Below are positions 872 to 8,300 of a stretch of DNA of 64,000 nt, piece after piece. The stretch comes from Anolis carolinensis (lineage: Eukaryota), in NCBI RefSeq assembly GCF_035594765.1, contig NC_085841.1:191441574-191505573 (forward strand). The letters are read 5' to 3'. Every line of letters begins with the position of its first letter. The stretch's first letter is position 1. The position numbers are program-made.

Positions 872-3800
872 CATATTTCCAAAGTGTGAGAACCAAAGAA
901 ATGGTATAAGAAATGTTTTGTAATGTCCCTCACATTATCGACATTTTATCTCTGCCAAAAGTGATTCACAGTATGTTGCCCACATGTAGTCCCACTGCAG
1001 TGTGTTTTGTGATGGGAAAATGTATTTTTGTTTACCTAATTATATGCAATATAATGAAAAGTTAATATGTGAGTATTCATATTCCCCTTACAAATCCACC
1101 TGAAAATATTGCTGTTTTAATACCTGGGAATTAGAAGAGTAGTAATTACATGTAATCATTCAACATTCCCTTATGCGTTGATCCAGAGGCCTGCAAAATC
1201 AAGGACCATTAAAACAACATGCTGGTGGGGTTTTTTTTTAGGAATTTGAAATTCTAGATTGAAAAATGATCTTAGATGTGATCTTTTTTTAGAACTTGCT
1301 TTGATATTTTTATTTTCTAATGTGTGGCTAAGATGCCTTTTTGGAATAAACAGTAAAAAAGCTGAAATCTTCTAATAGACTTTCAATACACTTTAATTCC
1401 TTGATATGAAACACAAAAAATCAGTTCAAAAGCACTAAAAGATAACATAGATAACTGTGTAACATGATTTTTGTTCCTGTCATTTCCTAATTGGTTTTAT
1501 CATAAAACATGGAAAAAGTTTATTAAACTGCACAAAGGTTTCCTTATTTTCATTAGGGAAAATTACAAATGAAGTGCCTAGACTGAAGGAAATAATAGTA
1601 CTACCCTCAGCCACAAAAACGATGTTTCTGAAGTATAACAATTACTTTCAAAGTACTGCACAATTACATAGGAAATAACACTTTCAAACCAGGAACAGAA
1701 AATGTTTCAAATTTTGTTACATAGTGTAATCAAAACTAAGTTAACAACTGAATTGTCAGTCCTGAGAGAGAATGATTGGAAGTTCAACAATTCGGTAGAG
1801 AACTGTGGAGGGTATGGCATTGTTTTTGTGCTTTTTGAATTCTGTAACCAAAAATACTCGCACATTAAAAAACATCTATAATATTGAAAAAAGTTTTTCA
1901 TCACAGAACTGTGTGATTGGCAGTGAGTCATCCAGTTATCCCTCAAGGCAGTTTGGTTGAGCAGAGTAATGCTTAGGACAAGGTTTCTCCATATACCTAC
2001 ATACTCCACTCCACTATCAGCCCTTTTATGTAGGGCTGGCAACTTAATCTATGGATCATGTTAGAGCTGTCGCTTATTTATTTATTTATTTATGACATTT
2101 CTACCACACCTTTCTCTACCCTGAAAGGGACTCAAGGCAAATATGTGTACATGGGAATTTAAAAATGTTTTCAGTACTTTGTGTGTTTGTTTGGGTGGCT
2201 GGGCTAGGCAGATTCAGTGGGACTACAGCTTTTTAGGAAGGCTTTTTTTCTAATATCCCCAGCTGCAATGAAAATATCATTCTTTATTCTAATATTGCAG
2301 TTTGGAGAAAAAGGTGTTCATGCCAGTGCGATATTTACTTCACCAAGACAAACTGTAATGTATGTTTTGTCCAAATTGTAACCGGGGAGGAAAGGATCTC
2401 TTTAGAAATCGCCTCCTGCCCCATCTAGTATCAAATAATCTTGAATCCTAAGATGTTTCTATCCAGTAATTGAATGCAGTAACTATTAGGCCCTCAGCAA
2501 AATGACTATAGGCATTCTTCCTCTGTCTCATCAATTTTTTCTGCAGTATATTTGAGAAACATTCTGTTATGTATCAAATAAATGATATGCAATAGTAGAA
2601 TGAGCTTAATTAACAAGAGAATAACAAGTCTTTAAAGCCTTTAGTAAAATGTGTGACTGTTGCATTTTTTTTAGGAGTGGTCATTTCACGAAAGAACCAA
2701 TTTCATCTTCCCATCGATTGTCACAAAAATGTAGAAGAGCCGTGTCTGATGCAGGACCATCTATAGATATTCCCCTTGAAGATACAGACAGTAAGTTATA
2801 TTTATATACTAGTTTGGGGACCTGGTGGTGCCCAGGTCATTTGAGAAAGGCATTGTTTGCCTGTGTTCCAAGTGTAGTCTAGATCAAATGTCAGCTGGGT
2901 TCAGTGAGTGGGGGTGAACTACAACTCCCATATGCAAGTCCCATCGTCGATGGACCGTCCCCCTCCAAACAGCACCAGGATGTAGAGTGAGTCATGGTGG
3001 CTCTATGTGTAAAGTTTGGTCTTGATCAGTCATTGGTGGGGGTTTCAGTGGTCTCAGGAAGCGAATGAAGGTACTGTAAATCCTATCATCCTTGGTCCAT
3101 TGTCCCCCGCAGGAGGACATAAAGGGGGTCACGGGGGTTCTGCCTGCCAAATTTGGTCCAATTCCATCACTGGTGGGCAGCACAGTGGTCTGTGGAATTT
3201 GAAGCAATTGAAAGTACTGCAAATCCCATCATCTGTGGTCCATCCTACCCCAGATGACACCAGGCGGTAAAGTGCATCATGGGGGTTATGTGTGCTAAGT
3301 TTGGGCCAGGTCCATCATTCCTGGCAGTCACAGTGACCTGCGGAAGTGGCGGACAATCAGAAAGCTGCCACATACACAGAAATATACAAACATACCCACA
3401 TACAAACATTGACTTTTATTATCTTTTATTTTATTATATAGATAGATAATATAGATATAGATTATTGACCAAAGAAAAGATAAGGACTCTAATTATAGTA
3501 AATCTAAAACGACCAGGATCTTTATAAACAGACTGCAAAATAAACTTACCTACCCCCTTTTTCTTCACTCCTTTCCCATCCCATACTTCCCCAAATACTC
3601 CCCCCCACCATCCCTCCACTCCCCTTTCCCATCCCCGTTTACCTTGATTTCTTCTCTCTCTCTTTCATTTTTCCCTCCTCCTCTCCCCCCCCCCCCCCTT
3701 TTCCCTTCCCTTTCCCCTTTCTCCCCTTCTTCCTTCTTCTTGACCAGAATCGGAGCAGAAACACACTGGGATTGAATCTTCGCTCTCAGTTTCATAGATC

Positions 3801-5356: not shown

Positions 5357-8300
5357 TTATTTCACATATTTACATATTGCTATTTGTAAATGACAAACAG
5401 TTTAGGAAAGTATGTTGATATCTTACAAATCATGTTTTTTTAAAAAGGCTTTCATGAGATACCGTATGTTGGCCATACCCCTCAGCTAAGTTGGGCAAAA
5501 CACCCAGGTCCCCGGATATAGACACCTTTAACATCTCCAGGGCGACCAGTCAGGAAAACATACCAAGAATTCTGCCCCATGTCCAAAGGATTTTACAGAG
5601 CCAGAGCTCTCCGCGTTTCAAGGTCATTTCCGTTTGCCCTCACCCTGGTTGCGTAAACACAGGTGAGGGTTTCCGTTCCTGGCTCACCCCACAAAGGGGT
5701 GCCTTAGGTGTACACCAAATGTAAACCTATGGCTGCTTTCCGCCACAGATTAGGTGTAAGTGTCCACTTTACCCCTATCCCCTACCAGGCTCCAAAGCGG
5801 CTTTAATGTCCCTTTACAAGTCACCTAGGAATTGGTGATTGCCTGTATCTTTTTAAAAAAATAATTTTTATTGCAAGATTTGTAAGCAACAGTGTTACAT
5901 TTTCTTTAACATATATATATCTTTTTCTTGATACAATAAAAACCAAATTGACTGCTAAGGATGATTAGGGAAAGGGGAGGAGGGGGGGGGTCCGGCGGGG
6001 AATACGAGGGGAGGGGAAGGAGCAGGAGGAGAAAAAAAAGGGAGAGAGAAAAAGAATGGTTAATAAAAAAAACAACAAAAAACAACCCCCCCCCAAAAAA
6101 AACTATAAACACAGTTGCTATAATTTTCCTACTACTTCCAGGGTCCGTACTGCAAATCCCATCATCCGTGGCCCATCCTACCACAAATGGAACCAGGCCA
6201 TAAAGTGCATCATGGGAGTTAAGTGTGCCAAGTTTGGGCCAGGTCCGTCATTTTTGGTGGTCATAGTGGCCTGTGGAAGTGGCAGCAAGTCAGAAAGCTG
6301 CCACATGCCCACATACAAACACTCCTGGAAGTCCCATCATCCATAGTCCAAACTATTCCAAACTGGACCAGGATGTAGAGTGGGTAATCGGGGCTGTGTG
6401 CCAAGTTTGGTACTGACTGGTTGTTGGTGGGAGTCGCAGTGCTTTCAGAAAGTGAGTGAAGGTATTGCAGGCCCCATTGTCCATGGTCCATCCACCTCCA
6501 AACTGCACGAGGGTGTAGAGTGGGTTGTTGTGGCTCTGTATGCCATGTTTGGTCTTGATCATTCACTGGTGGGGGTCGCAGTGGTCTCTGGAAGTGAGTG
6601 AAGGTATTGTAATTCCCATCATTCATGGTCCATCATTCTCCAAACCGCACCAGGTTATAGAGTGGGTCATGGGTGGTCTGTGTGCCAAGTTTGGTCTTGA
6701 TCAGTCATTTGTGGCAGTTGTAGTGATCTCAGGAAGTGAGTGAAGTTACTGCAAGTCCCACTATCCTTGGTATGGCATTCCCCAAACTGCACCAGAATGT
6801 AAAGGGGGTCACGGGGGTTCTGTCTGCCAAGTTTGGTGCAGTTCCGTCAATAGTGGGCGCTGCATGGTCTGTGGGAGCCAAGCAATTGAAAGTACTGCAA
6901 ATCCCATCATCCGTGGTCCATCCTCCTCCAAACGGCACCAGGACAGAATGGGTCATGGGGGTTATGTGTGCCAAGTTTGGGCCAGGTCCGTCATTCGTGG
7001 CGGTCACAGTGGCCTGTGGAAGGGGTAGCCAATCAGAAAGTTGCCACATACACTGCCGCATACCCACATACATACAAACATTCACTTTTATTATATATAG
7101 ATAGATAGATATAGATAGATATAGATATATAGATATAGATGTATTATGTGTTCCCTGTTCTTGAAGTAGAAGCCCACTTGGAGCAGGGTCATGATCTTTG
7201 CTAGAGTAACAGTGAATACAGAGATTACAGAAAGGGCAAAATGTTTTTGGTGACATAGGTATGTGCAACCTGAGGTTAGGCATGCACATTCTTTGGTGGA
7301 TAGTGCAGAAGGCATTATTCATTACCTCCTTGCAAACTATCCACCCACTCCCTACAGATAGCTTGTAAGTACCTGGGCGGCCAAGATTGTATAGTAGCCA
7401 TGGGCAGAGAAGTTCCATAGCTGCAACTACTTATGACTGCATGGGAAAAGAAAGTTTAGTCACTTAAGATCTTGGAGGATGACCTCAGCACAAGGTTGTG
7501 GTAGATGTACACTCTTTCTGTTAGATGTATAATTGTAGCCACAGCTTCTTGCATTGTACTGATGAAATAGGGTGCTAATGGCCTGGCATTTTGCCCTTTG
7601 AAGCATTTCAGAGTGGATTCAAATGTTACTTTCCAAAGACTTGCACAAGAAATGGTAGTGATTTAATGAGAAAGGATATCCACAGGAACTGTGTTACAAA
7701 ACGAAGTTCTCTGTGGTCAGTGCAGGAATAATGAAGCTTTTGATTCTGTATTTGTTGTGGTGAAATAAAAAACACAATATTGATGGAACAGGGCCTGTGC
7801 TTTACTGTATTCAGAAATTTTTCATGCCGAAGTGTAAGTCTTTGTGTATTGTTTGTTAGTAGTAGTTAGTAGGGAGGAGCCCCAGTGGCGCAGCGGGTTA
7901 ATCTGCTGAGCTGCTGAACTTGCTGACTGAAAGGTCGGCGGTTCGAATCTGGGGAGTGGGGTAAGCTCCCGGTGTTAGCCTCAGCTTCTGCCAACGTAGC
8001 AGTTCAAAAACATGCAAATGTGAGTAGATCGATAGGTACCGCTCCGGCGAGAAGGTAATGGCACTCCATACAGTCATGCCAGCCACATGACCTTGGAGGT
8101 GTCTACGGACAACGGTGGCTCTTCGGCTTAGAAATGGAGATGAGCACCAAGCCCCAGAGTCAGACACAACTAGACTTAATGTCAGGGGGAAACGTTTACC
8201 TTTATCTAGTTAGTAGGGGGCTACTTCATGCTTTCTTGGAAGAACGATTTGTTTTACTAATGTGGAGAATCAGGTGAGATAAATGCAGAGGAGAGTCAGC

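What the first reader, a model, noticed from the sequence alone, without database searches (positions are those of the whole stretch)
2809..7101. Composite Helitron carrying foreign exons inside a PLEKHA3 intron (probable gene capture)
Seen: on the - strand there is a canonical Helitron 3' end (hairpin 2819-2838, CTAG, then T) only 18 nt into the intron. There are two TC-starting 5' ends, at ~3442 and 7101. The outer segment (6147-7101) has no terminator of its own. Between the segments lie ~2.7 kb of non-Helitron sequence with exon-like units in the Helitron's orientation. Established: Helitrons capture host DNA by bypassing a missing 3' terminator (maize, vespertilionid bats). Inference: this is a 4.3-kb reptilian Helitron that transduced fragments of another gene.
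Basis: partly seen in the sequence, partly recalled or inferred. Interest (0 to 1): 0.75.

Follow-up and report, generated by a model that had tools for sequence, protein, structure and literature searches.

The report
Helitron cluster in anole PLEKHA3 intron
Three pieces of an old rolling-circle transposon family lie close together in the last intron of the green anole PLEKHA3 gene, and the DNA between them shows no sign of stolen gene exons, so this looks like ordinary transposon debris.

Summary
The window is Anolis carolinensis PLEKHA3 next to TTN. The block lies antisense at the start of the last PLEKHA3 intron (2791-13645).

Confirmed:
- A Helitron-type 3' end: a 7-bp hairpin at 2819-2838, CTAG at 2809-2812, then T, 18 nt from the exon.
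- Two homologous 5' ends.
- No terminator in the outer block.

Corrections:
- The 5' ends are more likely at 7139 and 3461 than at 7101 and 3442.
- The outer block is two pieces: A, with 5 units of about 142 bp, and B, a 5'-clipped leader plus one unit.
- The last 17 nt of the 3' end copy the start of the hAT-HT2/hAT-N4 terminal repeat.

The 2.7-kb interior is unique in the window. It contains a young 0.56-kb tandem duplication, an (AG)n run and a palindrome. No Pfam domain reached its cut-off. Neither of the two exon-like units searched, each alone, gave a credible protein relative. Exon-like units are about as frequent on the other strand.

Gene capture is unsupported. Whether the 4.3 kb ever moved as one unit could not be tested, because no lizard DNA was available. 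Low interest.

The parts
2809..3461 (-). Copy C. The only complete element: AT-rich (TCTA)n-like 5' tip, leader, units C1 (3352-3216), C2 (3204-3068), C3 (3067-2931), and a degenerate fourth unit or tail (2932-2809) that ends in hairpin and CTAG.
2819..2838 (-). Subterminal 3' hairpin GACCTGG-GCACCA-CCAGGTC. It ends 10 nt before the CTAG terminus (2809-2812). The 3' flanking base is T (2808).
2809..2825 (-). The terminal 17 nt, CCAGGTCCCCAAACTAG. They match the start of the hAT-HT2/hAT-N4 terminal inverted repeat CAGGGGTCCCCAAACT, minus GG.
6326..7139 (-). Copy A: 5' tip, leader and five units (A1 7028-6892, A2 6884-6748, A3 6742-6606, A4 6600-6464, A5 6458-6322). It has no 3' tail, hairpin or CTRR.
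6147..6325 (-). Fragment B: a second leader lacking the AT-rich 5' tip, plus one type-1 unit. Its unit is 86% identical to A1 and 85% to C1. It is cut off at 6147.
3462..6146 (.). Interior of 2,685 bp. It has no similarity to the Helitron units and, apart from its (AG)n run, no other copy in the window. It has no credible protein homology.
3529..4603 (-). Two tandem copies of a unit of about 0.51-0.56 kb (4040-4603 and 3529-4041). About 96.5% identical over the first ~345 aligned columns (my count from the alignment); 81% overall, because of a G-rich low-complexity end.
4148..4233 (.). 40-nt-arm palindrome, 98% complementary, present only in the first duplicate. It draws 30 generic miRNA, sRNA and snoRNA-type Rfam matches, all below their gathering scores.
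5309..5353 (.). (AG)22.5 microsatellite.
4905..5075 (-). Exon-like unit 1: AG...GTAAG, 57 codons, with a hydrophobic stretch. No homologue found.
4451..4537 (-). Exon-like unit 2: 29 codons, AG...GTAAA. Its duplicate lies at 3889-3975. Only repeat-inflated weak hits were found.
2675..2790 (+). Penultimate coding exon of PLEKHA3, the host gene, antisense to the elements. The last coding exon lies at 13646-13774.

Best explanation
This is a cluster of three same-orientation pieces of one old, non-autonomous, tandem-repeat-bearing Helitron family. It lies antisense at the very start of the last intron of Anolis carolinensis PLEKHA3.

- Copy C (2809-3461) is a complete element with the only terminator: a hairpin, CTAG, and insertion before T.
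- Copy A (6326-7139) keeps a 5' end but has lost, or never had, a 3' end.
- Fragment B (6147-6325) is a 5'-clipped leader plus one unit, abutting A.
- The 2.7 kb between B and C is anonymous non-coding DNA: low-complexity runs, a microsatellite, a young local tandem duplication and a palindrome. It is not a set of exons taken from another gene.

Most likely the pieces arrived by separate rolling-circle insertions close to one another. Later truncation or rearrangement made the A/B junction, and the DNA between is resident intron. The block has no visible effect on PLEKHA3, because the annotated protein uses the donor 18 nt away.

Shown: the anatomy, the ends, and the lack of coding homology.
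Inferred: the order of events, and that the interior is native intron.
For: - Host and place. The exon is 100% identical to NCBI PLEKHA3 isoform X2 of A. carolinensis. Exons map at 769-813, 2661-2789 and 13646-13774. TTN kinase and Ig exons lie on the - strand from 32.3 kb.
- Helitron ends. The hairpin-CTAG-T site is the only one in the window. The 5' ends start A|TC.
- Homology between A and C stops at 7145/3466 with unrelated flanks, so these are real element ends and not a segmental duplication.
- No published anole transposon terminal repeat lies inside 2809-7145. This is 0 of 13 motifs tested, with substitutions only.
- Family structure. Nine units score E 3e-40 to 3.4e-33 against their own profile. 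Units match by type: A1, B1 and C1 are 84-86% identical, A2 and C2 73%, A3/A4 and C3 78-80%. The three pieces are therefore about equally old members of one family.
- The interior is not genic. No Pfam match reached its curated cut-off in the 20 ORFs scanned, out of 55 ORFs of at least 45 aa in the region.
- The 57-aa unit gave 46 word candidates and none with E <= 10.
- The 59-aa ORF gave 2 hits with E <= 0.001 among 1,835,955,588 representatives. Both are repeat proteins matched in 5 and 7 stretches. The best single BLASTP alignment is 29.3 bits.
- Exon-like units are no more frequent on the Helitron strand than on the other strand.
- Literature. Anole Helitrons are abundant. One old family, Helitron-2N1_AC, has 19.4% pairwise divergence. 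Only one of the eight families is composite (passages of PMC3014272).
- In bats, Helitrons are often found inserted next to pre-existing or 5'-truncated Helitrons (passages of PMC4778049).
Against: - Three pieces of one family within 4.3 kb, all in the same orientation, are unlikely under fully independent insertion. My rough estimate is a few per cent at most. It is not computed from genome data.
- Helraiser showed no local hopping in cell culture (PMC4778049).
- No terminator lies between A's 5' end and C's 3' end. The 5' end is the essential cis element, while the 3' end is dispensable and can be bypassed. The block is therefore built just as a chimeric, read-through Helitron would be.
- Nothing here shows that the interior is native intron.
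- The protein searches could miss a parent that is unannotated, non-coding or fast-evolving.
- The third ORF group (4213-4446 and 3665-3895) was scanned against Pfam only.
Confidence: 0.5

Rival explanations
1. Chimeric or read-through Helitron. A's 5' end and C's 3' terminator acted as one 4.3-kb unit at a donor locus and transposed into the PLEKHA3 intron. It carried B and 2.7 kb of anonymous, non-coding host DNA.
For: - A has a 5' end but no hairpin or CTRR.
- The first convincing terminator downstream on the same strand is C's.
- All pieces share one orientation.
- The outer flanks would rejoin as an AT-rich A|T target.
- The experimental read-through model holds that the left end is essential and the right-end hairpin acts as the terminator (passages of PMC4778049).
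- Anole Helitron-2N3 is a known composite (passages of PMC3014272).
Against: - No second copy of the interior or of either junction was seen, but only 64 kb could be searched.
- The junction-spanning ORF 5906-6247 gave 97 candidates and none with E <= 1. This is weak evidence, because the collection may hold no such ORFs.
- C has its own complete 5' end with A|TC, as expected of an independent insertion.
- Novick et al. call composite Helitrons rare in the anole.
Confidence: 0.28
2. One reading: the composite carries real exons captured from another gene.
For: - Open frames with AG/GT borders lie in the Helitron's orientation at 4905-5075, 4451-4537 and 3889-3975.
- 3 of the 5 differences between the two copies of the 29-codon unit are synonymous by my reading. 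I estimate a chance probability of about 0.1, which is not significant.
- There is a weak resemblance to the C-terminal part of Tudor domains.
Against: - No Pfam family reached its cut-off.
- No relative of the 57-aa unit was found among proteins of 101-2000 aa.
- The Tudor hit owes its E of 1.4e-7 to five near-identical repeats. One alignment scores 29.3 bits, which is expected by chance in 2.4e11 residues.
- The 65 nt upstream of the 29-codon unit are even better conserved between the duplicates than the unit itself.
- Exon-like units are as common on the other strand.
Confidence: 0.06
3. The 3' end is not a Helitron terminus. A hAT-HT2/hAT-N4 element inserted into a satellite-like array of 142-bp units. 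A deletion then removed all but 17 nt of its terminal repeat, so the hairpin and CTAG are accidents.
For: - The 13-mer GGTCCCCAAACTA at 2810-2822 is identical to the terminal repeat of two complete hAT MITEs in the window. With up to 1 mismatch there are 5 matches against 0.07 expected.
- The repeat is printed as CAGGGGTCCCCAAACT in Table 1 of PMC3014272.
- A diverged unit array at 22909-23252 shows no recognisable Helitron ends.
Against: - The two-base difference from the canonical repeat is exactly what makes the perfect 7-bp stem with the upstream arm. I estimate the chance of such a stem at about 4e-4.
- The stem ends 10 nt from a CTAG followed by T, the canonical Helitron geometry.
- A and C have matching TC-starting 5' ends with unrelated flanks, no terminal inverted repeats and no 8-bp target duplication.
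- The scenario needs a deletion of about 0.7 kb ending 18 nt from an exon.
Confidence: 0.1

Closest known systems
Non-autonomous Helitron families of Anolis carolinensis (Helitron-1N1_AC and Helitron-2N1 to 2N5_AC; Novick et al. 2010, PMC3014272, passages read)
   Same: - Same host.
- No terminal inverted repeats and insertion at A|T.
- Sizes of 0.55-2 kb, as for copies A (0.8 kb) and C (0.65 kb).
- The old Helitron-2N1_AC family has 19.4% pairwise divergence, close to the 14-22% seen between A, B and C.
   Different: - Family assignment could not be made.
- The paper passages I read do not mention 142-bp internal tandem units.
Chimeric and read-through (end-bypass) Helitrons of vespertilionid bats and the Helraiser experiments (Grabundzija et al. 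2016, PMC4778049, passages read)
   Same: - An upstream element without hairpin or terminator, followed by non-Helitron DNA and then a bona fide 3' end in the same orientation.
- Abutting or 5'-truncated neighbours, as described for bat copies with de novo 3' ends.
   Different: - In bats, mobility of the composites is shown by multiple copies and empty sites. Here neither could be tested.
- No promoter or exon of a known gene lies inside.
Helitron-2N3_AC, the one composite anole Helitron family (PMC3014272)
   Same: An anole Helitron carrying extraneous DNA.
   Different: - Helitron-2N3 carries Poseidon and SINE fragments, is about 2 kb long and is young (about 2% divergence).
- The block here is 4.3 kb. 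Its Helitron parts differ by 14-22%. No known repeat was recognised in its interior.
hAT-HT2_AC, hAT-HT2N1 to N3, hAT-HT3N2 and hAT-N4_AC terminal inverted repeat (Table 1 of PMC3014272)
   Same: The last 17 nt of copy C match the first 16 nt of the repeat, apart from a 2-nt gap.
   Different: - Only the repeat start is present. It faces outward-in, with no hAT body, no partner repeat and no 8-bp duplication.
- It is embedded in a Helitron-type hairpin and CTAG.
Tandem-repeat-bearing Helitron or Helentron derivatives such as DINE-1/HINE (recalled, from no call)
   Same: Short non-autonomous rolling-circle elements with an internal array of tandem units and a microsatellite near one end.
   Different: - Those are Helentron-associated, with subterminal inverted repeats and TT targets.
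- Here the ends are TC...CTAG at A|T.

Membership tests
Helitron (non-autonomous) | 5' terminus TC | tested here: met
A and C both start A|TC, at 7140|7139 and 3462|3461. The feature carries little information, because the region is (TCTA)n-like.
Helitron (non-autonomous) | 3' terminus CTRR | tested here: met
   CTAG lies at 2809-2812 in copy C only. A and B have none.
Helitron (non-autonomous) | Hairpin about 10-12 nt upstream of the 3' end | tested here: met
   A 7-bp stem and 6-nt loop end 10 nt from the terminus. z is -2.36. It is the only such site in the 64-kb window, against 0.285 expected.
Helitron (non-autonomous) | Insertion between A and T without target duplication; no terminal inverted repeats | tested here: inconclusive
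   The flanks are A (3462) and T (2808). I saw no direct repeat of the flanks and no inverted termini by reading. No empty site was available to prove the target.
Helitron (non-autonomous) | Multiple dispersed copies sharing both termini | not testable with these tools
   Only two 5' ends (78% identical) and one 3' end lie in the window. A diverged unit array lies at 22909-23252. No lizard genome DNA was accessible.
Helitron (non-autonomous) | Descent from an autonomous Rep/helicase element | not testable with these tools
   No Rep or helicase domain was found in the 20 ORFs of the region that were scanned, as expected for a non-autonomous copy. The autonomous consensus was not available.
Gene-capturing composite Helitron | Upstream element lacks its own terminator | tested here: met
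Gene-capturing composite Helitron | The whole composite is bounded by one insertion site (empty site) or present in several copies with the same inner junctions | not testable with these tools
   There was no eukaryotic DNA collection. The protein-level proxy across the 6147|6146 junction gave nothing, with 97 candidates and none with E <= 1.
Gene-capturing composite Helitron | The internal fragment is homologous to a parent gene elsewhere | tested here: not met
   Tested at protein level for two units, each searched alone, and against Pfam for 20 ORFs. DNA-level parentage was not testable.
hAT non-autonomous element | Two terminal inverted repeats CAGGGGTCCYCAAACT and an 8-bp target duplication | tested here: not met
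   Only one truncated repeat start lies at 2809-2825, with no partner and no duplication. By contrast, the complete MITEs at 10008-10714 (TGTTAGGT) and 60598-61504 (CTCCACAG) have both.

The most novel reading that the evidence does not exclude
The 4.3-kb block is a mobile chimeric Helitron. Its terminator was assembled from the first 17 nt of a hAT terminal repeat paired with a unit-derived arm. It has transduced about 2.7 kb of host DNA in an old anole Helitron family not known to do so. That would be one transposon superfamily recycling the end of another as its stop signal.
Probability: 0.15. Interest if true: 0.45.

Novelty: new member of a known kind. Interest (0 to 1): 0.2.

Why it matters
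- If the block were a mobile composite, it would add a second case of host-DNA transduction by anole Helitrons. It would also be an example of a Helitron stop signal built on a hAT terminal repeat.
- As it stands, it is a typical piece of transposon-rich anole intron. Its main practical value is for annotation.
- It shows that a Helitron end can lie 18 nt from a used splice donor without disturbing the annotated protein.
- It also shows that 'exon-like' open frames in AT-rich intron DNA need a homology check before capture is claimed.

Tried and rejected
- Segmental duplication as the origin of A and C. Rejected, because homology stops at the 5' ends and the flanks are unrelated.
- The interior as a fold-back element with purine-rich inverted ends. 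The alignment is low-complexity only: 3 of 300 and 125 of 300 local shuffles reach the scores (leads).
- The interior as a known anole DNA transposon. 0 of 13 published terminal-repeat motifs fall inside 2809-7145. Retrotransposons and SINEs could not be checked without a repeat library.
- RNA genes. Of 31 Rfam matches with E <= 1, 30 are generic hairpin hits on the 4137-4244 palindrome and 1 is a 14.5-bit CrcZ hit. All are far below their gathering scores.
- A DnaJC1/SANT-like reading of 'EWTQNNTKLLEQL'. This was recalled only, and no search supported it.
- A Tudor-domain reading. Rejected as repeat-summed.
- Homology of C's tail to the tail of the array at 23.6 kb. It is not significant: 39 of 500 shuffles reach the score.
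- Searches that gave nothing.
- Paper searches for anole Helitron satellites or capture found only reviews and the papers cited here.
- The bacterial and archaeal genome-contig collection was not used, because it cannot hold lizard DNA.

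
Full report
**Context**

The window has no N. The + strand exon 2675-2790 is 100% identical to NCBI 'pleckstrin homology domain-containing family A member 3 isoform X2 [Anolis carolinensis]'. It is 87% identical to A. sagrei and 77% to Phrynosoma and Rhineura. These were 4 proteins with E <= 0.01 among 5 candidates.

A local tblastn places residues 206-220 at 769-813, residues 216-258 at 2661-2789 and residues 260-302 at 13646-13774. The finding therefore lies at the very start of the last PLEKHA3 intron (2791-13645), antisense to the gene. 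Titin kinase, Ig and Fn3 exons fill the - strand from about 32.3 kb onward (60 of the window's 405 ORFs of at least 55 aa were scanned). This fits the PLEKHA3-TTN neighbourhood that I recall from other vertebrates.

**The 3' end**

On the - strand the sequence reads ...GACCTGG GCACCA CCAGGTC CCCAAA CTAG | T, followed by 17 more nt of intron and then the exon. The hairpin folds at -7.9 kcal/mol with z -2.36, and 3 of 200 shuffles fold as well.

A scan of both strands of the whole window for a perfect stem of at least 7 bp, a 3-8 nt loop, a 2-12 nt spacer, CTRR and T found exactly one site, this one. 200 block shuffles gave a mean of 0.285 sites, and 25% had at least one. Alone this is modest evidence. 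Its position at the end of a repeat array, on the right strand, makes chance unlikely.

**The 5' ends and the make-up of the blocks**

Self-BLAST aligns 6608-7145 with 2933-3466 at 78% identity. The three-way alignment shows that homology runs through a (TCTA)n-like tip to 7139-7145 and 3461-3466, and that the flanks beyond are unrelated. Three things follow:

- The ends are real element ends.
- A simple segmental duplication is excluded.
The nearest A|TC boundaries are 7140|7139 and 3462|3461.

The body is an array of units of about 142 bp (TRF: period 142, 3.6 copies, 76% matches). A profile of the units finds nine strong copies (E 3e-40 to 3.4e-33): five in A, one in B and three in C.

Units match by type: A1, B1 and C1 are 84-86% identical, A2 and C2 73%, and A3/A4 and C3 78-80%. 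The three pieces are therefore about equally diverged members of one family.

B (6325-6147) is a second leader that lacks the AT-rich tip, plus one unit. A runs into it without any 3' tail, and B breaks off at 6147. C's 3' 'tail' (2932-2809) starts with TGGGAGTTGTAGTTCACC, a motif that recurs between units at 22992-23009. By eye it reads as a fourth, degenerate unit.

**A new detail: the terminus resembles a hAT repeat**

The last 17 nt of C (CCAGGTCCCCAAACTAG) equal the start of the hAT terminal repeat CAGGGGTCCCCAAACT, minus GG. The 13-mer GGTCCCCAAACTA has 5 matches in the window with up to 1 mismatch, against 0.07 expected. The other four are the ends of two complete hAT MITEs with 8-bp target duplications, at 10008-10714 (TGTTAGGT) and 60598-61504 (CTCCACAG).

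Table 1 of Novick et al. 2010 prints this repeat for hAT-HT2_AC, its N1-N3 derivatives, hAT-HT3N2 and hAT-N4_AC (PMC3014272, passage read).

There are two readings. Either the Helitron stop signal was built on a captured hAT end, or a hAT remnant mimics a Helitron end. I favour the first. The two-base difference from the canonical repeat is what creates the perfect 7-bp stem, and the hairpin-to-CTAG-to-T geometry is canonical. I keep the second reading as a rival at 0.1.

**The interior (3462-6146)**

- It has no similarity to the units or to anything else in the window except its (AG)n run.
- It holds two tandem copies of a unit of 0.51-0.56 kb. They are about 96.5% identical over the first ~345 columns by my count, so they are much younger than the 14-22% divergence of the Helitron pieces.
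- It holds a 40-nt-arm palindrome in one copy only.
- It holds an (AG)22.5 run and purine-rich low-complexity tracts.
- Rfam gives only sub-threshold generic hairpin hits on the palindrome (30 of 31 matches).
- None of the 13 published anole DNA-transposon terminal repeats falls inside 2809-7145.

**Are there exons?**

Open frames with AG/GT borders exist on the - strand: 4905-5075 (57 codons), 4451-4537 and its duplicate 3889-3975 (29 codons). I searched them one at a time.

- Pfam: no match reached its curated cut-off in the 20 ORFs scanned, out of 55 ORFs of at least 45 aa. The best was DUF7022 at 19.3 bits against a cut-off of 27.
- The 57-aa unit against longer proteins (101-2000 aa) gave 46 word candidates and none with E <= 10. 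That collection does hold annotated A. carolinensis proteins.
- The 59-aa ORF 4394-4573 against 1,835,955,588 representatives gave 2 hits with E <= 0.001.
  - One is a MYND-plus-Tudor protein matched in five near-identical repeats. The best single BLASTP alignment is 29.3 bits at 39% identity.
  - The other is a repetitive zinc-finger protein matched in seven stretches.
  - Summing over repeats explains the E-values. One such alignment is expected by chance in 2.4e11 residues.
- A crude count of exon-like units gives 2.98 per kb on the - strand, inflated by the duplication. The + strand of the interior gives 2.24 per kb, and other non-coding parts of the window give 0.54-1.93 per kb. The 57-codon unit did not pass that filter.
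- Between the two copies of the 29-codon unit, 3 of 5 differences are synonymous. This is not significant, and the 65 nt upstream are identical.

The claim of foreign exons is therefore not supported. It could still hold for a parent that is unannotated or non-coding.

**One unit or several?**

For a composite:
- A has the essential left end and no terminator.
- No convincing terminator lies before C's.
- All pieces point the same way.
- Helraiser work shows that the left end is essential, that the right-end hairpin acts as the stop signal, and that its loss gives read-through. It also saw no local hopping (passages of PMC4778049).

For separate insertions:
- C has its own complete A|TC 5' end.
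- The same paper reports bat Helitrons inserted next to pre-existing or 5'-truncated Helitrons.
- Novick et al. found only one composite family among eight anole Helitron families, and frequent deletion in the anole genome (passages of PMC3014272).
- A diverged relative of the units lies at 22909-23252 (E 1.8e-13, 3.5e-08 and 7.9e-04). This family group is therefore not rare locally.

The junction-spanning ORF 5906-6247 found nothing (97 candidates, none with E <= 1). That is uninformative, because even its Helitron-derived part found nothing.

The decisive data are other genomic copies and orthologous introns. They were out of reach.

My estimates:

| Explanation | Probability |
|---|---|
| Neighbouring insertions with resident intron between | 0.5 |
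| Mobile composite carrying non-coding DNA | 0.28 |
| Composite carrying real gene fragments | 0.06 |
| Not a true Helitron end | 0.1 |

**Comparison with what is known, and verdict**

Non-autonomous Helitrons, composite Helitrons and hAT MITEs are all described for A. carolinensis (PMC3014272, passages; PMC2997563, passages). Capture by read-through is established in bats and in Xenopus (PMC4778049; PMC12001565, passages).

This locus is a new example of a known kind. Family assignment is open. The hAT-like terminator is a small curiosity worth one genome-wide check. Interest is low (0.2).

Noticed in passing
window 10008-10714 and 60598-61504: Two complete non-autonomous hAT elements with the terminal repeat CAGGGGTCCCCAAACT and 8-bp target duplications (TGTTAGGT and CTCCACAG). 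The first lies in the PLEKHA3 last intron and the second lies among the TTN exons.
   Followed up: yes
window 22909-23252 (+), continuing after 23608: A diverged array of three units related to the 142-bp Helitron units (nhmmer E 1.8e-13, 3.5e-08 and 7.9e-04). It has a leader-like start but no recognisable Helitron ends. It is interrupted at 23271-23608 by a MITE with TcMar-N7/8-type terminal repeats and TA flanks.
   Followed up: partly
window 4148-4233: A near-perfect palindrome with 40-nt arms, a 6-nt spacer and 98% complementarity. It is present in only one of the two tandem duplicates. It draws many sub-threshold miRNA-type Rfam hits, which I take to be generic hairpin matches.
   Followed up: partly
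window 9567-9703: A GC-rich minisatellite of 21/42-bp units. It accounts for the 0.63 GC peak at 9.5-10 kb inside the intron and, in my judgement, is not a promoter island. The ORFs around it have no Pfam match.
   Followed up: partly
window 16643-17092, 19971-21155, 12095-12484 and 25881-26513: Retrotransposon and hAT remains downstream of PLEKHA3. They include weak reverse-transcriptase matches (below cut-off), a zf-RVT match below cut-off, and a hAT dimerisation domain at E 6.1e-15.
   Followed up: no
window 1709-1726 (-) and 29080-29099 (-): Exact matches to the published terminal repeats of Chapaev3-1N2_AC and TcMar-N7/8_AC, each without a partner found at up to 2 mismatches.
   Followed up: no
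window 32279-63706 (-): The 3' part of titin. A single 2,076-codon open frame (34064-40291) carries the kinase, one Fn3 domain and nine I-set Ig domains. Further Ig and Fn3 exons follow.
   Followed up: no
window 7092-7140 and 3440-3461: The 5' tips of both Helitron copies are (TCTA)n-like microsatellites of different lengths, about 49 nt and about 22 nt. The tip seems to expand and contract, which blurs the exact 5' boundary.
   Followed up: partly
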